In this document: piece by piece, positions 43,119-53,314 of the stretch
Layout: every line of letters starts with the position of its first letter
Numbering within the stretch: the stretch's first letter is position 1
Virus genome (UHGV): UHGV-1440165
From: a virus
Direction: 5' to 3' (one strand)
DNA: 64,000 bases
Position numbers and translations under genes: made by a program
The notes under the pieces: model-generated
The model's database searches: none
Seen by the model: only the letters and a program-made list of their open reading frames with translations
What the model was told of the DNA's origin: nothing

Positions 43119-43126
43119 TATAAATA
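43119..43126 (+). promoter_or_regulatory. T4-type late promoter candidate (TATAAATA)
   Basis: Exact TATAAATA about 30 nt upstream of the 43156 ATG. Confidence 0.4.
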
Positions 43127-43155: not shown

Positions 43156-43962
43156 ATGAAATTGCCTTCATTGCCCAGAACGGAAAAGACGTTCAAAAGT
43201 GATTTTTGGCCGAGTGTTATCAAATACCGCGCTTTCACTGCCGGGCAACAAACCCTCATGCTGCAGGTGGCAGATCCAAACACTCCGGTAGCCGAACGCG
43301 CCGAGATCATGGAGAGCCTGTTTGCAGATTGTGTTGAAGCTGGAGCACCGTTCAACAAATTACCCATCGGTGTGGTTGAAGAAGTGTTCATCCGCATGCG
43401 CAGTATCGCTATTGGCGAGCTGATGAAGATTCGTTACAAGTGCAATAACCCTATCGAAGAAACAACCGACCTCGGTGATGGCGAATCCAGAAAAGAAATG
43501 GTTCCGTGTGGGCAAGAACTGACTCTGCCGATCCCCCTCTTGAACGTGAAATGCGTGGCAAAGGAAGGGTTCAAAGAGGTCTTCGACCTGCCTGGTGGTT
43601 ATCACCTGAAGATGCGCCAGCCGTCCTTCGCTGATGCCACCGCGCTGTCCGAATCGGCAAGTGTTGAGCAAATGCTGGCCACCTTTATCGACTGCTTGTA
43701 CGATGACGACGGCCAGGTGTGGAGTGTTGAGAACCCTGATGAACCGGGTATCAAGCCGGAAGATGCTATCGAGCGCCGTCGTGTCAAAGAAGCGTTTATC
43801 GAATGGGTGAAAGATAACCTCGAATCAGATGTCATCGAGGATATCACCAAGAACTTCTTCCATAAGATTCCTCGCATCCACTACAAGAACAAGATCAAGT
43901 GTCCAAAATGTGGTAAAGAACACCCGATCGAGTTCAACAGCATTAATGAAATTTTCATCTAA
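43156..43962 (+). CDS. Putative baseplate protein with C-terminal zinc ribbon (gp26/gp53-like?)
   Basis: 268 aa; late-promoter motif upstream; lies just upstream of the gp5-like gene; C-terminal CPKCGKEH. Confidence 0.4.
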   Translation: MKLPSLPRTEKTFKSDFWPSVIKYRAFTAGQQTLMLQVADPNTPVAERAEIMESLFADCVEAGAPFNKLPIGVVEEVFIRMRSIAIGELMKIRYKCNNPIEETTDLGDGESRKEMVPCGQELTLPIPLLNVKCVAKEGFKEVFDLPGGYHLKMRQPSFADATALSESASVEQMLATFIDCLYDDDGQVWSVENPDEPGIKPEDAIERRRVKEAFIEWVKDNLESDVIEDITKNFFHKIPRIHYKNKIKCPKCGKEHPIEFNSINEIFI

Positions 43963-44117
43963 TGTTTGAAACTGATTTGCTATCCTACTTCGTGATGTGT
44001 GATGAATTGAAGTTACACGGCTATAACATATTCGAAATCAACGAGTCGATGCCATGGCACCTTGACTTGTTAACCGAAGCCCTCCGGGTCAGGTTATCTA
44101 AGAAGAACCCCGCATAA
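43962..44117 (+). CDS. Small ORF (51 aa), hypothetical
   Basis: ATG overlaps the upstream TAA (TAATG); its TAA stop lies in the loop of the 44108-44128 terminator. Confidence 0.3.
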   Translation: MFETDLLSYFVMCDELKLHGYNIFEINESMPWHLDLLTEALRVRLSKKNPA

Positions 44118-44128
44118 GCGGGGTTTTT
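44108..44128 (+). terminator. Rho-independent terminator
   Basis: ccccgc-ataa-gcgggg hairpin followed by TTTTT. Confidence 0.65.
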
Positions 44129-44177
44129 ATTGGCTTAACTGTAAAACAGGTTAATGCCGCTCCTCTTTACCCGAAAT

Positions 44178-44186
44178 TGTTATAAT
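44178..44186 (+). promoter_or_regulatory. Extended -10 promoter candidate (TGTTATAAT)
   Basis: TGn immediately upstream of TATAAT; no good -35; about 280 nt upstream of gp5. Confidence 0.3.
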
Positions 44187-44468
44187 AGGCGTGTTCCTGA
44201 GTTAACAATTGGCGGTCTCTGGTTTTGAATCAGATTGTCAATTAAAAACCATTTTTCAAGGGATGTTCTGAGGTGTACAGTTATTGCCTCGCTCTTATGC
44301 CTCCATGGCATTGGAATGGTGCTGCCTGCATAAGGCGGTCTGATGAGCGAAGCGAATAGGATCGAATAAGACAATAACGGAACGGAAGCAGAGCTTCCTA
44401 TAGTATATAAGGCAAAATCCGTTGCGCATAAATACCTTCAAATCCTTGTTTGACAACTGGAACACAAC

Positions 44469-46079
44469 ATGTTAGACAAAATGAAATGGTTTTATGGCAC
44501 GGTTGAAGACGTCAACGATCCGGACCAAAACGGGCGCGTGGCCGTCCGCATCTATGGCGTACACACAGACGATCCAGTCCTCCTGCCTACCGATAAACTC
44601 CCATGGGCGAAGGTGTTAATGCCTGCATCGAATGCCTCCTCGGCTGGTTTAGGCTGGTCACCGACTGGTATTATCGTTGGCACTGAGGTCATGGGGTTCG
44701 CCCTGGACGATGCGTATCAGAATCTGCGTATCACTTGGACATGGCCGGGGGCTTCTCCTACCGATGGGGCAGACACAAACCCGCTGGCTCTGGGGCAGGT
44801 TGTGCAATCTGTCGAACGTCAGGCGTACAATGCTGTGACGGACGTGCCTGTGAAGGAAGAAGACACACCGCCACCGGACCCCCAGCCTCCTGTTGGTGGA
44901 TATGATCCTGAAAAATGGATGACTATCGCTCGTGGTGAATTGGGTGTCAAAGAGTACGCTGGCAAGTTCAATAACAACCCACGAATCGTTGAGTACCACA
45001 AGACCACCTCCCTCGGCGCATCTGAAGATGAGGTGTCATGGTGTGCGGCGTTCGTCGGTTGGGTTATGCTCAAGGCCGGATTTACGTCTACGCGCTCTGC
45101 TCTTGCCCGATCATACCTGACATGGGGTAGTCCACTGTCAGGACCACAATATGGCGCTATCGTAGTGTTCCGGCGCGGGAACAACCCTACGTTCGGTCAC
45201 GTGGCGTTTGTACAGAAGTTCGATGCCAACTATGTGTGGTGTCTTGGTGGCAACCAGTCTGACTCCGTGAAGGTGAGCCGTTTCAGCCGATCTTCAGTTC
45301 TGGGCTACCGCTGGCCGGGTCCGACTAACACTACCGCAGCAGCCCCAGCACAACAGAACGGGAAGTGGTCTGAACCTATCCCAGACCGTACTCCAAAAGA
45401 GCAGACGACTCCGCCTCCTTCCGGGCGTGTGCAGGATATTGACAACACTGGCGAGACTATGGTTCCGGCAGCGGGTGGTTCCAAATATCCGTACAACAAT
45501 GTCATGGCTTCACGTGCGGGGCACATCATGGAAGTGGACGACACTCCTGGTGGTGAACGTCTCCACTGGATGCACATGTCAGGCTCGTACAAGCAGATGC
45601 TGCCGGACGGGGATGTTGTCAACAAGTCGGTCAAAGACCACTATGACCTGACTATGTTCAACAAACGCTATTATGTTGGCGGCGATCACAACCTGACTAT
45701 CAAAGGGACTGAGGTGCAGCGCAAGAACGGTGAAGTCTATCACCTGCACTCCAGCAATTACTCAAATGTGGTTGCAGGCACGGCGCTATTAAAGTTCAGC
45801 GATCTGGTCGAAATGCAGGCACAGAAGATCTTGCGTATCATCTGTGAGACTCTTGAAGTTGGCGGTGTTCTGAAAGTTCCTAAGCTGCTGGTCACAGAGA
45901 TCATCGCCGATAAACTGACGGTGGCACAGACAATCAACGGCAACATCATATATGCTGAAGGTGCTGGTCGTGCTTCTTCTCTGTCGGGTGCAACCCCGGC
46001 CAGCCCTACGGGTCCGGGTGAGATAGATATCAAGGCAGAGCTAAAAGACAATGGTGGTAATTTCTCCTCAGGGGAATAA
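44469..46079 (+). CDS. 5: Baseplate central spike (gp5-like) with CHAP/NlpC-P60-type peptidase domain
   Basis: N-terminus WFYGTVEDVNDPDQNGRVAVRIYGVHT matches the gp5 OB domain; middle has a Cys/His pair (SWCAAFVGW ... FGHVAFV); C-terminal beta-helix-like repeats. Confidence 0.75.
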   Translation: MLDKMKWFYGTVEDVNDPDQNGRVAVRIYGVHTDDPVLLPTDKLPWAKVLMPASNASSAGLGWSPTGIIVGTEVMGFALDDAYQNLRITWTWPGASPTDGADTNPLALGQVVQSVERQAYNAVTDVPVKEEDTPPPDPQPPVGGYDPEKWMTIARGELGVKEYAGKFNNNPRIVEYHKTTSLGASEDEVSWCAAFVGWVMLKAGFTSTRSALARSYLTWGSPLSGPQYGAIVVFRRGNNPTFGHVAFVQKFDANYVWCLGGNQSDSVKVSRFSRSSVLGYRWPGPTNTTAAAPAQQNGKWSEPIPDRTPKEQTTPPPSGRVQDIDNTGETMVPAAGGSKYPYNNVMASRAGHIMEVDDTPGGERLHWMHMSGSYKQMLPDGDVVNKSVKDHYDLTMFNKRYYVGGDHNLTIKGTEVQRKNGEVYHLHSSNYSNVVAGTALLKFSDLVEMQAQKILRIICETLEVGGVLKVPKLLVTEIIADKLTVAQTINGNIIYAEGAGRASSLSGATPASPTGPGEIDIKAELKDNGGNFSSGE

Positions 46080-46151: not shown

Positions 46152-46532
46152 ATGAAAGAGTACAAAGATGTCGATCTGAAGTTTGGGATGCACCCGGTCA
46201 CCAAGGACGTCACCATGAAGTCTGGGGTGTATGCTGTGCTTCAATCCGTGAGGAATATCACGATGTCCGCTGTTGGTGACTGGCCGACATATCCTGGTAT
46301 CGGTGCAGGGCTTTACGGTCTTCTGGGTGAGAACACGAACCCGACGATTCAGGTGGACGTGGCGAAGAAAGTAGAGGACGCCATTGCCCTGTATGAGCCT
46401 CGAGCAGAGGTGGATGATGTGAGCGTGTCCCTGTCAGATGATTATCATTCTCTGGGCGTGACCATCAGATTCTATGTGGTCAACAACCCAGAGCCGATAA
46501 CAGACACAGTCTGGTTGAAGCGGACGAACTGA
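46152..46532 (+). CDS. 25: Baseplate wedge protein (gp25/GPW-like)
   Basis: 126 aa; GPW/gp25-family pattern (AVGDWPTYPGIGAGLYGLLGE). Confidence 0.6.
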   Translation: MKEYKDVDLKFGMHPVTKDVTMKSGVYAVLQSVRNITMSAVGDWPTYPGIGAGLYGLLGENTNPTIQVDVAKKVEDAIALYEPRAEVDDVSVSLSDDYHSLGVTIRFYVVNNPEPITDTVWLKRTN

Positions 46533-49148: not shown

Positions 49149-51428
49149 TCAGACAACACAGGTGTCACAAACTTCTTCAGCCTGTTTCAGCTCTTCGTCT
49201 TCCTTGGCGTCCTTGTTCGTGTTGTAATACAGAGTCTTGCCGCCCCACATATAGAAGGACAGGATATCCTGCATCATCTTGGCACGAGGAATTTTGCCAC
49301 CCGGGAACTTCTCTGGGTCATACCAGGTGTTGGTGCTGATGGCCTGGTCAACCCAGCGCTGAATAACAGCAGCGGTCTTCAGGTACTCGATGCATTCCAG
49401 GTCCCACTTCAGGTCATACAGCGGTCCAAGGGTCTCTACATCCGGAACAACCTGCTTGTAAGTGCCGTCCTTGCTACCCTTAATGCTTACCAAGCCCTTC
49501 GGCGGCTCAATGCCGTTCGTTGCGTTGAGGACTTGTGAGGAGCTTTCGGTAGGGGCTACTGCCAGCAGGGTGGCGTTGCGGATACCATAGGTCTTCAGAT
49601 CATCCTTCAGTTCTTCCCAATCCAGACCGTATGCCATGCCTTCCGGCTTCTTACCATTCGGCAGGATATCAAGTGGAAGCGGCTGAAGATCGGCAGTCAC
49701 CTGACCCATACCATGAATGGTCGCACGTTTGCATGCACCGAACTTCATCGCCAGACGGTTGGATGCCTTGACCAGATAGTAGTGTAGGTGCGCCATCCAC
49801 GCATCCAACATCTCGAGACCAGCTGGTGAGCCGTACCCCGTGAAGTTCTTGGCCAGGAAGTGAGCCACGTTCACGATACCAACACCCAGAGGGCGATAGT
49901 CTTCAACAGCTTTACGAGCCTGGATTGCCGGATAGTCTTGATATTCCAACAGCATGTCCAGCGCAGACACCAACACGAACGCCACGTCTTCCATCTCAGT
50001 CGGGTCTTCGAACGCCGTCAGGTTAAAGGAAGCCAGGGTACACAGAGCCACGCGCCCGTTTTCATCGTTGTACTGCTCAAACTCACGGGTCGGCAGGGCG
50101 ATTTCAAGACACAGGTTGGAGCTGTAGATGGTGTCGAGGTTGAATGGGCTGTATTCATTCATGTGATCGACAAATGCGATATAGATGCGGCCTGTGTCTG
50201 AACGCTGGTCTAACAGCATCTGGAACACTTCTTCAGCCTGCAGCTTCTTAGAACGCACCAGACCAGCATCGGCGGCCTTGATCATGTTCTCATACAGAGT
50301 ACGGAACTTGTCAACGTCGGCGAAGTATGCTTCGTACATTTCGCGGTTGTCTTTCGGGTCGAACAGATACAGAGGCTGCTTGGCAACCAGGCGCTCAAAC
50401 ATTACACGATTGATCTGAATACCGTAGTCGATACGACGTTCGCGGTTCTCTTCAGTACCACGGTTGTTCTTCAGAACAACGACGTCATCGAACTGGTAAT
50501 GCCACAGAGGGATATAAGCTGTTGCTGCACCACCACGAATGCCGCCCTGAGAGCACGACTTCAGCGCCCCAGTGAGGTACTTGATGAACGGGATCAGGCC
50601 TGTGTGAACCATCTCTCCGCCGCGAATAGGACTGCCAATCCCACGGATAGCCCCGATGTCGAAGCCGATACCCGCACGTTTGGACACATAGTCAACGATG
50701 GTCTTGGCTGTTGCGTTGATAGAATCCAGGGTGTCACCAGTTTTGATCAACACACAGGAACTGAACTGACGGGTTGGCGTACGAACGCCTGCCATGATCG
50801 GGGTTGGAAGACTGAACTTGCCTGTGCTGGCATATTCATAGAACTTCTTCACCATATCCAGGCGGCTGTCTTTGTCCCAGTTGGAGAACAACGCCATGGC
50901 GATGCCCATGTACATGACCTGTGGGGTTTCATAGAAGATCTTGCTGTCCTTCTTGGAACGGTCACGCAGCAGATACTTCTCTGTCAGCTGGCCCATGGCC
51001 GCCCAGGTGAAGTTCTTGTCACGTTTGTGGTTGATAACATCGTTCAGCTCGTTGAACTCTTCGGTAGTGTAGAGATCAAGGAACTCACGATCATACACGC
51101 GCTGTTTGATGTTCTTGGCGAAGATATCCAGCAGGTGAGGCGGCTTGTACTGGCCATAGGCGCTCTTACGCAGATCATATGACTTCAGACGAGCAGCCAC
51201 ATACTGGTAATTGGGTTTGTCTACGGAGATCAGTGAAGCCGCAGCCTGGATGAGGATATCCTGAATGCGATCTGTTCTCATGTTATCGGTGAACTGGATC
51301 TTCGATGCAGCAATCACCTCTGACATTGATACCCCAGGCAGACCATCACACGCACGGTCTACGACAGTGTGGAGTCTTTCAATATCAAAGGGGACAGAAG
51401 ATCCGTCCCGCTTAATGACGTTAATCAT
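49149..51428 (-). CDS. nrdA: Ribonucleotide reductase large subunit NrdA (class Ia)
   Basis: 759 aa; N-terminal ATP-cone (VIKRDGSSVPFDIERL), catalytic barrel, C-terminal Cys pair (CDTCVV). Confidence 0.9.
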   Translation of the reverse strand: MINVIKRDGSSVPFDIERLHTVVDRACDGLPGVSMSEVIAASKIQFTDNMRTDRIQDILIQAAASLISVDKPNYQYVAARLKSYDLRKSAYGQYKPPHLLDIFAKNIKQRVYDREFLDLYTTEEFNELNDVINHKRDKNFTWAAMGQLTEKYLLRDRSKKDSKIFYETPQVMYMGIAMALFSNWDKDSRLDMVKKFYEYASTGKFSLPTPIMAGVRTPTRQFSSCVLIKTGDTLDSINATAKTIVDYVSKRAGIGFDIGAIRGIGSPIRGGEMVHTGLIPFIKYLTGALKSCSQGGIRGGAATAYIPLWHYQFDDVVVLKNNRGTEENRERRIDYGIQINRVMFERLVAKQPLYLFDPKDNREMYEAYFADVDKFRTLYENMIKAADAGLVRSKKLQAEEVFQMLLDQRSDTGRIYIAFVDHMNEYSPFNLDTIYSSNLCLEIALPTREFEQYNDENGRVALCTLASFNLTAFEDPTEMEDVAFVLVSALDMLLEYQDYPAIQARKAVEDYRPLGVGIVNVAHFLAKNFTGYGSPAGLEMLDAWMAHLHYYLVKASNRLAMKFGACKRATIHGMGQVTADLQPLPLDILPNGKKPEGMAYGLDWEELKDDLKTYGIRNATLLAVAPTESSSQVLNATNGIEPPKGLVSIKGSKDGTYKQVVPDVETLGPLYDLKWDLECIEYLKTAAVIQRWVDQAISTNTWYDPEKFPGGKIPRAKMMQDILSFYMWGGKTLYYNTNKDAKEDEELKQAEEVCDTCVV

Positions 51429-52460: not shown

Positions 52461-53255
52461 TTAACTGAAGCTTTTGTATGCCGCTGCGAGCTTCGTGTCG
52501 TACTGGTTCTTGGCGTATGCTGGGCCATTGTAGCGCCGCGCAAACTCCGCCCAGTTCTTGTCTTTCAGAGCCTGCCAGAGCTTGGCATCGGCCTTGATGA
52601 ACTTCACGAATGCCAACAGATGAGCGCGTTCGCCTGTCAGGAAGTCATTGAACATCTCCTTGGCGTTGGCATACCCACAGACCTGGCAGTTGAAGCCCAT
52701 GATCTGGAAGAGGCCGTAAGAGGCGCTCTCGTACGCACAATCCTCATCGATGTTGATGGCCGCATGGAGTCGATCCAGTTCTGCGTCGCCGCCCGTGTAC
52801 CCGCCCGCAGCCGGACTGACCAATGTTGGATACATCTGACCCATGGCATTCGCCCGAGCCTGACCGAACTTCGCCATCAGTTTTTTGTACATGATGTGAC
52901 GTTCGAACAACGTTTTTATCTTGCCTGACTTGGTGAAGCCCGTGCCACGGGATTCGACCTGGTTGACCGCCTTCACAGAAGCGAGGTCGACACCCAGCTG
53001 ATTGGCCGCCTCGATAAGGTCGGCCTCAGTCAGGTGATCCTGATGCGCTTCCCCGGCGTTGCGAATGGCATAGGAGGTCTTTGGACCCACGATACCATCA
53101 ATGACAAGCCCCGCACCCGCCTGAACAGTCTTCACAGCGTTCTCTGTTGCCTTACCAAAGATGCCGTCAGCGACGAGAGTGAAGCCGATTTTGTTGAGGC
53201 TATCCTGAAGTGCCTTCACTTCAGTGCCACGGTTGCCAAGTTTTAGAATGGCCAT
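52461..53255 (-). CDS. Endolysin: peptidoglycan-binding domain plus N-acetylmuramidase-like catalytic domain
   Basis: PG_binding_1-like N-terminus (GTEVKALQDSLNKIGF...DGIFGKATENAVKTVQ); ATG 53255 with GGAGG SD. Confidence 0.7.
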   Translation of the reverse strand: MAILKLGNRGTEVKALQDSLNKIGFTLVADGIFGKATENAVKTVQAGAGLVIDGIVGPKTSYAIRNAGEAHQDHLTEADLIEAANQLGVDLASVKAVNQVESRGTGFTKSGKIKTLFERHIMYKKLMAKFGQARANAMGQMYPTLVSPAAGGYTGGDAELDRLHAAINIDEDCAYESASYGLFQIMGFNCQVCGYANAKEMFNDFLTGERAHLLAFVKFIKADAKLWQALKDKNWAEFARRYNGPAYAKNQYDTKLAAAYKSFS

Positions 53256-53314
53256 AAGAAAATACCTCCGCAATGAATGCGAAGGTATTTAAAGTGAAAG
53301 TGAACTACTTGAGA

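What the first reader, a model, noticed from the sequence alone, without database searches (positions are those of the whole stretch)
44469..46079. gp5-like baseplate spike carries a CHAP/NlpC-P60-type peptidase domain
The N-terminal OB domain and C-terminal beta-helix-like region are gp5-like, but the middle domain shows a Cys...His pair in the context SWCAAFVGW ... FGHVAFV, typical of CHAP/NlpC-P60 amidase-peptidases rather than a T4-type lysozyme. This implies peptide-stem or amidase cleavage of peptidoglycan during entry.
Basis: partly seen in the sequence, partly recalled or inferred. Interest (0 to 1): 0.5.

Follow-up and report, generated by a model that had tools for sequence, protein, structure and literature searches.

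The report
Phage tail spike with cysteine peptidase
The central tail spike of this Vi1-like (Ackermannviridae) phage is built like the T4 gp5 spike but carries a CHAP/NlpC-P60-type cysteine peptidase where T4 has a lysozyme; this is real, but it is shared by the whole phage family and was already listed in a 2011 genome paper.

Summary

**What the gene is**
- ORF 44469..46079 (+) encodes 536 aa.
- Its N-terminus is a Gp5 OB domain, and residues 337-435 are homologous to the start of the T4 gp5 C-terminal spike.
- Residues ~146-283 are a TIGR02594/CHAP domain (NCBIfam E 3.6e-38; Pfam CHAP 39.4 bits against a cut-off of 26).
- No lysozyme match was found. T4 gp5, run as a control, does give Phage_lysozyme.

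**Evidence for an active peptidase**
- Cys192, His244 and Asn262 are invariant in 120 family members and in 17 spike orthologues.
- The peptidase is the most conserved part of the protein.

**Context**
- The gene lies between gp26-like and gp25-like baseplate genes.
- The phage's endolysin (52461..53273, -) is an unrelated muramidase.

**Novelty: low**
- The window is 96% identical to Salmonella phage pSal-SNUABM-02.
- Hooton et al. 2011 already listed "Gp5 OB family & CHAP domain" for the PhiSH19 orthologue.
- NCBI already names one copy "TIGR02594 family protein".
- Still unknown: the bond cleaved. The common label "tail lysozyme" is a misnomer.

**Side observation**
The ~340-nt region upstream of the gene holds a family-wide conserved element with covarying hairpins. 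It is a candidate structured RNA.

The parts
44469..46079 (+). Gene for the central baseplate spike/hub protein (536 aa + stop), a gp5 homologue
   Evidence: ORF. [quoted passage not shown] 92% identical to LIMEstone1 ORF061, annotated 'confirmed structural protein'.
44469..44843 (+). N-terminal Gp5 OB-fold domain (aa 1-125)
   Evidence: Pfam PF06714, E 1.2e-12. 40% identity to T4 gp5 residues 6-102. PDB hits 1k28, 1wth and 9f4a.
44844..44903 (+). Pro-rich linker 1 (aa 126-145)
   Evidence: Sequence VPVKEEDTPPPDPQPPVGGY. Low conservation: 59% mean identity, 20% invariant columns.
44904..45317 (+). TIGR02594 / CHAP cysteine-peptidase domain (aa 146-283), in the position of the T4 lysozyme domain
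45042..45044 (+). Codon of the predicted catalytic Cys192
   Evidence: Invariant in 120 family members and 17 orthologues. Lies at the N-terminus of a helix in the model. Aligns with the DCS Cys of CwlO.
45198..45200 (+). Codon of the predicted catalytic His244
   Evidence: Invariant. Lies at the start of a beta-strand. Aligns with GHV of CwlO and GHVAF of the phage 812 C51 domain.
45252..45254 (+). Codon of Asn262 (GGNQ motif), the probable third polar residue of the triad
   Evidence: N invariant and Q nearly invariant in A2 and A3. Its role as third residue is inferred from position only.
45318..45476 (+). Linker 2 (aa 284-336), Pro/Thr/Ala-rich
   Evidence: Sequences. It corresponds topologically to the T4 linker that holds the S351/A352 maturation site (established knowledge). 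No recognisable conservation of that site.
45477..45773 (+). gp5C-like proximal spike segment (aa 337-435)
   Evidence: 35% identity to T4 gp5 residues 386-480, E 1e-16. PDB alignments to 1k28 and 9f4a.
45774..46076 (+). Distal C-terminal region (aa 436-536), not T4-like. It ends in the invariant motif L-x-D-x-G-G-N-F.
   Evidence: No significant T4 alignment and no Gp5_C or Gp5_trimer_C match. Weak lag-8 periodicity, 0.07 against 0.21 in T4. Invariant L525, D527, G529, G530, N531 and F532.
44427..44434 (+). T4-type late-promoter-like box cATAAATA, ~35 nt upstream of the start codon
   Evidence: Sequence. Invariant in all aligned relatives. LIMEstone1 annotates a 'putative late promoter' at the same place.
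43156..43962 (+). Neighbouring gp26-like baseplate hub gene (context)
   Evidence: PHROG 150 'baseplate hub', E 2.6e-54. Exact TATAAATA at 43119-43126.
46152..46532 (+). Neighbouring gp25-like baseplate wedge gene (context)
   Evidence: PHROG 261 and 43 'baseplate wedge subunit', E 1e-29.

Best explanation
The gene encodes the central spike (hub) protein of a contractile-tailed Ackermannviridae phage. It keeps the T4 gp5 scaffold: an N-terminal OB domain that docks on the hub, then a linker, an enzyme domain, a second linker, and a C-terminal spike. The enzyme cassette is a papain-like Cys-His-Asn peptidase of the TIGR02594 subfamily (CHAP / NlpC-P60 superfamily) instead of a GH24 lysozyme.

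Inferred mechanism. On tail contraction the spike is driven through the outer membrane. The peptidase domains, flexibly tethered by Pro-rich linkers, then open the peptidoglycan locally by cutting its peptide part, so that the tail tube can reach the inner membrane. My most likely guess for the bond is gamma-D-Glu-meso-DAP (D,L-endopeptidase), as in the nearest structural neighbours. Cell lysis at the end of infection is left to a separate, unrelated muramidase endolysin.

Shown: domain identities, fold, conserved triad, genomic context, and virion presence of orthologues. Inferred: catalytic activity, timing at entry, trimeric state, and bond specificity.
For: Domain assignment. Negative for lysozyme, with a positive control on T4 gp5. 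Homology to T4 gp5 only at the two ends.

Catalytic residues: invariant in 120 family members and 17 spike orthologues down to 59% identity. The peptidase is the best-conserved segment.

Family function: stand-alone homologues sit in holin-endolysin-Rz-Rz1 cassettes or next to a holin, and carry PG_binding_1, LysM or SH3 modules. A TIGR02594 T6SS effector causes bursting death of Gram-negative targets (PMC13340143).

Virion component: the LIMEstone1 orthologue is annotated 'confirmed structural protein' and is 92% identical. The Sajous1 'Tail associated lysozyme' was detected by mass spectrometry among that paper's listed phage structural proteins (PMC10892097); that it is the orthologue is inferred from its name.

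Context: the gene lies between gp26-like and gp25-like baseplate genes with a late-promoter-like box. A separate endolysin with PG_binding_1 + PF11860 muramidase is at 52461..53273.
Against: No enzymatic activity of any TIGR02594 protein has been defined at bond level in the literature I could search. Sequence profiles find no significant solved relative, so specificity is a guess.

The full-length model failed, so the trimer and the spike geometry are not modelled.

The distal C-terminus is unlike T4, and no gp5.4/PAAR homologue was found in the window. The tip architecture may therefore differ.

In T4 the gp5 lysozyme is dispensable under laboratory conditions (established knowledge), so a strict requirement at entry cannot be assumed.
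Confidence: 0.8

Rival explanations
1. [quoted passage not shown]
For: Only the inherited annotation in most GenBank records and papers.
Against: No Phage_lysozyme or any glycosidase match at E<=1, while the same scan detects it in T4 gp5. No significant alignment with the T4 lysozyme segment. The fold search returns only papain-like peptidases.
Confidence: 0.01
2. The domain is an N-acetylmuramoyl-L-alanine amidase, as some CHAP domains are, and not an endopeptidase. It would strip whole peptide stems from the glycan.
For: The Pfam family that matches by sequence is CHAP, which includes amidases. One homologue is annotated 'putative N-acetylmuramoyl-L-alanine amidase' (H77). The T6SS paper loosely calls its TIGR02594 effector a lytic amidase.
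Confidence: 0.2
3. The domain cuts the meso-DAP-D-Ala cross-link (D,D-endopeptidase) or acts as an L,D-carboxypeptidase, like MepS or Tae3. It would loosen the mesh without shortening the stems.
Against: These hits rank below the D,L-endopeptidases. The sequence link to Tae3 is not significant (E 0.42).
Confidence: 0.2
4. The peptidase domain is catalytically inert and serves only as a structural or peptidoglycan-binding spacer in the spike.
For: None direct. The enzymatic domain of T4 gp5 is not essential in the laboratory (established knowledge).
Against: Cys192, His244 and Asn262 are strictly invariant. The domain is the most conserved part of the protein across genera. That is not expected of a degenerate enzyme.
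Confidence: 0.04

Closest known systems
Bacteriophage T4 gp5 (tail-associated lysozyme, central spike; PDB 1K28, 1WTH)
   Same: Same scaffold and domain order. The N-terminal OB domain is 40% identical, an enzyme domain sits between two linkers, and the proximal C-terminal spike is 35% identical. Both are baseplate genes with a late-promoter-type signal.
   Different: The enzyme cassette is a cysteine peptidase (CHAP/TIGR02594), not a GH24 lysozyme. The distal C-terminus lacks the Gp5_C repeats and the trimerisation-domain signature. The spike enzyme is unrelated to the phage's own endolysin, whereas in T4 gene 5 and gene e both encode lysozymes (PMC7650644).
Orthologous spike proteins of Ackermannviridae (Vi01 gp5, PhiSH19 'tail-associated lysozyme', LIMEstone1 ORF061, CBA120-like phages)
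   Same: Same protein: 59-92% identical over the full length, with the same Gp5_OB + CHAP architecture. The PhiSH19 table already lists 'Gp5 OB family & CHAP domain (CL0125)' (PMC3220722).
   Different: Nothing essential. Serratia and Erwinia phage orthologues carry an extra C-terminal extension of ~75 aa that is absent here.
Stand-alone TIGR02594 family proteins (phage endolysins, e.g. Stenotrophomonas phage DLP_1 and Proteus phage PL1; T6SS effectors)
   Same: Homologous catalytic domain, roughly 35-60% identical depending on the member, with the same invariant D..WC / GH / GGNQ motifs.
   Different: They are free 130-220 aa proteins, often with PG_binding_1, LysM or SH3 modules. They are found in lysis cassettes or beside VgrG genes, and are not embedded in a spike.
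Hub/spike proteins with NlpC/P60 or CHAP domains in contractile systems that target Gram-positive cells (diffocin Hub-Hydrolase CD1368, PDB 8V3W; Staphylococcus phage 812 hub, PDB 9EUF/9EUM)
   Different: Different hub scaffolds and hosts. No sequence-level homology outside the catalytic core.
NlpC/P60 D,L-endopeptidases LytE, CwlO and Acd24020
   Different: Only 18-22% identity. Pfam NLPC_P60 does not match the window protein. They are bacterial autolysins.

Membership tests
T4 gp5-type central spike / baseplate hub | N-terminal Gp5 OB domain (PF06714) | tested here: met
   48.7 bits against a cut-off of 25. 40% identity to T4 gp5.
T4 gp5-type central spike / baseplate hub | C-terminal gp5C spike (beta-helix) homology | tested here: inconclusive
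   Residues 337-435 are homologous to T4 gp5 386-480 (E 1e-16). Pfam Gp5_C and Gp5_trimer_C are not matched, although they are in T4. Residues 436-536 are unlike T4.
T4 gp5-type central spike / baseplate hub | GH24 lysozyme domain between OB domain and spike | tested here: not met
   No PF00959 match at E<=1. The control on T4 gp5 is positive. The position is occupied by CHAP/TIGR02594.
T4 gp5-type central spike / baseplate hub | Encoded among baseplate genes and present in the virion | tested here: met
   Flanked by gp26-like and gp25-like genes. The LIMEstone1 orthologue, 92% identical, is annotated 'confirmed structural protein'. A 'Tail associated lysozyme' was detected by mass spectrometry among the phage structural proteins of Sajous1. 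Virion presence is by transfer from orthologues and was not measured for this phage.
T4 gp5-type central spike / baseplate hub | Homotrimer capped by a PAAR-type tip protein (gp5.4) | not testable with these tools
   The full-length single-sequence model failed. No gp5.4 homologue in the window by BLAST or phmmer, which does not exclude one elsewhere in the genome.
CHAP domain (Pfam PF05257, peptidase clan CA) | Profile score above the gathering threshold | tested here: met
   39.4 bits against 26, residues 187-262.
CHAP domain (Pfam PF05257, peptidase clan CA) | Conserved catalytic Cys (helix N-terminus) and His (beta-strand) | tested here: met
   Cys192 and His244 are invariant. Their secondary-structure positions appear in the model.
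TIGR02594 family (NCBIfam) | Full-length profile match above the curated cut-off | tested here: met
   130.9 bits against 70.55, profile positions 2-132 of 132.
NlpC/P60 (Pfam PF00877, MEROPS C40) | Sequence profile match | tested here: not met
   No PF00877 match at E<=1 for the window protein. A few family homologues have precomputed PF00877 hits.
NlpC/P60 (Pfam PF00877, MEROPS C40) | Papain-like alpha+beta fold with Cys-His-polar triad | tested here: met
Peptidoglycan hydrolase (any bond) | Demonstrated cleavage of peptidoglycan and identity of the bond | not testable with these tools
   Needs a zymogram and muropeptide LC-MS. Only indirect support is available: lysis-cassette context of homologues and a lytic T6SS effector.

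The most novel reading that the evidence does not exclude
The whole Ackermannviridae family uses a cysteine peptidase of the biochemically undefined TIGR02594 subfamily as its spike enzyme. This would be the first well-supported case of a peptidase central spike, rather than a glycosidase one, in a myovirus of Gram-negative hosts. The swap may be adaptive. It could make entry insensitive to periplasmic lysozyme inhibitors and to Spackle-like superinfection-exclusion proteins that target gp5 lysozyme. It could also suit walls whose glycan is modified. Defining its bond specificity would at the same time annotate more than a thousand TIGR02594 endolysins and T6SS effectors.
Probability: 0.15. 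Interest if true: 0.45.

Novelty: already known. Interest (0 to 1): 0.2.

Why it matters
**Annotation.** Hundreds of records call this protein a "tail lysozyme". Through PHROG-style transfer, the same label now sits on free-standing endolysins of unrelated phages such as ICP1, a T5-like Proteus phage and Pseudomonas siphophages. [quoted passage not shown] would be the correct name.

**Biology.** A 2017 review states that nearly all described virion-associated lysins are glycosidases, and that only phi6 Gp5 among those of Gram-negative phages has proven endopeptidase activity (PMC5380687). A widespread, therapeutically used phage family with a peptidase spike is therefore an obvious and cheap target for biochemistry.

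This is not a new kind of system.

Tried and rejected
- **Full-length AlphaFold2 without an alignment.** pLDDT was 31, so the model is unusable. This cost one of the two prediction jobs, so no model of the spike or the trimer was obtained.
- **PDB sequence and profile searches for the middle domain.** Only non-significant hits, E 0.16-1. The fold search was needed instead.
- **A second copy of the peptidase in the window, as a paralogue of the endolysin.** None found. The endolysin is an unrelated PF11860 muramidase.
- **A T4 gp5.4/PAAR homologue in the window.** None found.
- **A conserved equivalent of the T4 gp5 S351/A352 maturation site.** The alignment in the linker is not informative.
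- **Literature searches for a structure of an Ackermannviridae baseplate, or biochemistry of this domain.** Nothing found. The 2024 family review mentions neither lysozyme, peptidoglycan, gp5 nor endolysin.
- **The idea that Vibrio phage ICP1 'Gp5' is a similar spike.** Rejected. It is a 238-aa PG_binding_1 + CHAP protein among nrd and phoH genes.
- **Rfam on the upstream region.** Only sub-threshold matches over or next to the 44104-44130 terminator hairpin.

Full report
**What is there**

The window holds an ATG-initiated ORF at 44469..46079 (+) of 536 aa.

The window is from an Ackermannviridae (Vi1-like) myovirus. The 2.6 kb around the gene are 96.1% identical to Salmonella phage pSal-SNUABM-02, 94.6% to Yersinia phage CAU_YEP3, and ~85% to the Dickeya Limestoneviruses and Shigella phage Ag3. 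There are 226 matching phage records.

The gene lies between a gp26-like hub gene (43156..43962) and a gp25-like wedge gene (46152..46532), as in LIMEstone1 and CAU_YEP3. A T4-type late-promoter-like box, cATAAATA, sits ~35 nt upstream, where LIMEstone1 annotates a putative late promoter.

**Domain assignment**

Pfam gives Gp5_OB (residues 39-98, 48.7 bits against a cut-off of 25) and CHAP (187-262, 39.4 bits against 26), and no lysozyme family at E<=1. NCBIfam gives TIGR02594 over its whole length (residues 150-282, E 3.6e-38, 130.9 bits against 70.55). [quoted passage not shown]

As a positive control, the same Pfam scan of T4 gp5 returns Gp5_OB + Phage_lysozyme + Gp5_C + Gp5_trimer_C. A lysozyme would therefore have been seen.

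Against solved structures, and against T4 gp5 directly, only the two ends are homologous. Residues 3-94 align with gp5 6-102 (40% identity, E 5e-17), and residues 339-435 with gp5 386-480 (35%, E 1e-16). The middle gives nothing significant. The domain order is therefore the T4 one, OB - linker - enzyme - linker - spike, with a different enzyme cassette.

**The enzyme domain**

A search with residues 143-287 found about 1,470 homologues. Those listed are mostly free proteins of 130-220 aa named 'TIGR02594 family protein', all with precomputed CHAP hits and some with PG_binding_1, SH3 or LysM modules.

In a 120-sequence alignment the invariant columns include Asp187, Trp191, Cys192, His244, Gly261 and Asn262.

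A profile of the family has no significant solved relative by sequence. The weak alignments nevertheless put the family's WC..F on the DCSSF motif of the D,L-endopeptidase CwlO, and its GHVAF on GHVGI of CwlO and GHVAF of the phage 812 C51 domain.

AlphaFold2 with the 120-sequence alignment gave a confident model (pLDDT 95.8, pTM 0.91). Cys192 lies at the N-terminus of a helix, and His244 and Asn262 lie on or beside successive beta-strands. That is the canonical papain-like arrangement.

**Is it likely to be active, and what for?**

Across 17 full-length orthologues (59-92% identity) the triad is invariant. The peptidase segment is the best-conserved part of the protein, with 86% mean identity and 51% invariant columns. 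Elsewhere the figures are 59-77% identity and 20-31% invariant columns.

Free-standing family members sit in lysis cassettes: holin-endolysin-Rz-Rz1 in Stenotrophomonas phage DLP_1, and holin plus this gene in a T5-like Proteus phage. A TIGR02594 T6SS effector of Stenotrophomonas rhizophila is reported to cause rapid bursting of target cells (PMC13340143).

Orthologues of the spike protein are virion components. LIMEstone1 ORF061, which is 92% identical, is annotated as a 'confirmed structural protein'. A 'Tail associated lysozyme' was detected by mass spectrometry among the structural proteins listed for phage Sajous1 (PMC10892097); I take it to be the orthologue from its name.

The phage has a separate endolysin at 52461..53273 (-), made of PG_binding_1 and the PF11860 N-acetylmuramidase domain. 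No second copy of the peptidase exists in the window.

The most likely mechanism is that of T4 gp5 (established knowledge from the T4 structure work). The spike is driven through the outer membrane on sheath contraction, and the tethered enzyme domains locally digest the peptidoglycan. Here that digestion would attack the peptide rather than the glycan.

Which bond is cut is not determinable from these data. The nearest folds are gamma-D-Glu-mDAP D,L-endopeptidases, so that is my first guess. An amidase, or a D,D-endopeptidase like MepS or Tae3, remain open.

**Where the description needs trimming**

Only residues 337-435 are demonstrably gp5C-like. Residues 436-536 have no T4 similarity, no Gp5_C or Gp5_trimer_C signature, and weak 8-residue periodicity (0.07 against 0.21 in T4). 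They end in a Gly/Ser/Pro-rich tail with an invariant L-x-D-x-G-G-N-F motif.

No gp5.4-like tip protein was found in the window.

The full-length single-sequence model failed, so the tip architecture is unknown.

**Comparison with what is known, and novelty**

The Gp5_OB + CHAP architecture is present in all Ackermannviridae orthologues retrieved. [quoted passage not shown] An identical-architecture copy filed under Salmonella enterica is named 'TIGR02594 family protein' by NCBI. Several GenBank records call it 'cell wall-associated hydrolase'.

Hooton et al. 2011 list the PhiSH19 orthologue (541 aa) as 'Tail-associated lysozyme ... [quoted passage not shown] The finding is therefore already on record, though never discussed. 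Genome papers keep the T4 name, and the 2024 family review does not mention the protein.

The cassette idea is general:
- Gp5_OB + CHAP without a spike occurs in the Pootjesviridae Rhizobium phage RL2RES and in metagenomic proteins.
- Gp5_OB + NlpC/P60 occurs in another (P0146).
- Gp5_OB + VgrG3-like C-terminal domain occurs in another (P0149).
- Hubs fused to NlpC/P60 or CHAP domains are solved for diffocin and for Staphylococcus phage 812.

A review notes that described virion-associated lysins are overwhelmingly glycosidases, and that only phi6 Gp5 among those of Gram-negative phages has proven endopeptidase activity (PMC5380687). The biochemistry would therefore still be worth doing.

**Annotation error noticed**

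[quoted passage not shown] Examples are Vibrio phage ICP1 (238 aa, PG_binding_1 + CHAP, among nrd and phoH genes), Proteus phage PL1 (168 aa, next to a holin) and Pseudomonas siphophages.

**Side observation: a conserved upstream element**

The ~340 nt between the terminator at ~44104-44130 and the spike gene carry no annotated gene in most relatives. They are nevertheless more conserved against LIMEstone1 (88.5%; core 93%) than the flanking baseplate genes (80-83%). The core (~44221-44408) is found in 272 phage records, almost all from hosts of Ackermannviridae phages, at 72-99% identity.

No reading frame is convincingly preserved. A 20-21-codon micro-ORF (MPPWHWNG...) stays open, but its second half is not conserved.

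A consensus fold on six sequences has 37 pairs with 97% of cells paired. Seven pairs show double changes, against 2.9 +/- 1.0 in shuffles (0/500) and 0-1 in slid registers. The caveat is that the structure was derived from that same small alignment.

With 16 distinct copies, including IMG/VR contigs, the three central hairpins recur. An additional, independent compensatory change (U-A to C-G in L025) appears in the second hairpin, and it would be two non-synonymous changes in the micro-ORF. Invariant G-U pairs favour the + strand. Single-sequence fold energy is unremarkable (z -1.0 and -1.7), and no Rfam family matches beyond sub-threshold hits at the terminator.

This is a candidate family-specific structured RNA, or leader, of unknown function. 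It was only partly followed up.

**Verdict**

The novelty rating is 'already known' at the level of domain architecture, with the enzymology still open. Interest is low to moderate (0.2).

Noticed in passing
window 44131-44468 (core ~44252-44398, + strand): The 'intergenic' region upstream of the spike gene is more conserved than the flanking genes (88.5-93% against 80-83% versus LIMEstone1) and is present in 272 phage records, almost all from hosts of Ackermannviridae phages. A consensus fold with several hairpins shows compensatory changes: 7 of 37 pairs, 0/500 shuffles, and an independent extra event in locus L025. It is a candidate structured RNA or leader, with no Rfam family. A 20-codon micro-ORF (MPPWHWNG..) is a weaker alternative.
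   Followed up: partly
window 52461-53273 (- strand): The phage's probable endolysin: PG_binding_1 + PF11860 N-acetylmuramidase (E 7e-59). It is unrelated to the spike peptidase, so entry and exit would use different enzyme classes. In T4, gp5 and gpe are both lysozymes.
   Followed up: partly
L003:2752-3468 (Vibrio phage ICP1), L006:3893-4399 (Proteus phage PL1), and hits H73-H75: [quoted passage not shown] This is an annotation-transfer error that seems to stem from the Ackermannviridae spike.
   Followed up: yes
window 45969-46076 (aa 501-536); orthologues P0134, P0136, P0137, P0139, P0142 and P0143: The spike ends in an invariant L-x-D-x-G-G-N-F motif. Serratia and Erwinia phage orthologues continue for ~75 more residues (low-complexity, then a conserved ...G.kP....S.G..WE.. 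end). This suggests an optional tip module.
   Followed up: no
L005:2575-3441 (Rhizobium phage RL2RES, Pootjesviridae); P0144, P0146, P0149, P0240: Other hub-type proteins combine modules differently. Gp5_OB + CHAP without a spike occurs in RL2RES (288 aa) and P0144 (319 aa). Gp5_OB + NlpC/P60 occurs in P0146. Gp5_OB + VgrG3-like C-terminal domain occurs in P0149. P0240 has a VgrG3-like C-terminal domain with a GH46-like match but no Gp5_OB match in my scan. The enzyme module of gp5-type hubs behaves as a swappable cassette.
   Followed up: partly
L001:11202-14504 versus window 49149-51428 (- strand): NrdA is 759 aa in the window but ~1100 aa in LIMEstone1. CAU_YEP3 has an extra 'endonuclease' gene between nrdA and phoH. 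This suggests intein or homing-endonuclease variation around the nrd genes in this family.
   Followed up: no
window 43962-44130: A small conserved ORF follows the gp26-like gene (annotated in relatives as a 49-51 aa hypothetical protein; 93% nucleotide identity to LIMEstone1). After it comes a strong intrinsic terminator, aaccccgcataagcggggttttta.
   Followed up: no
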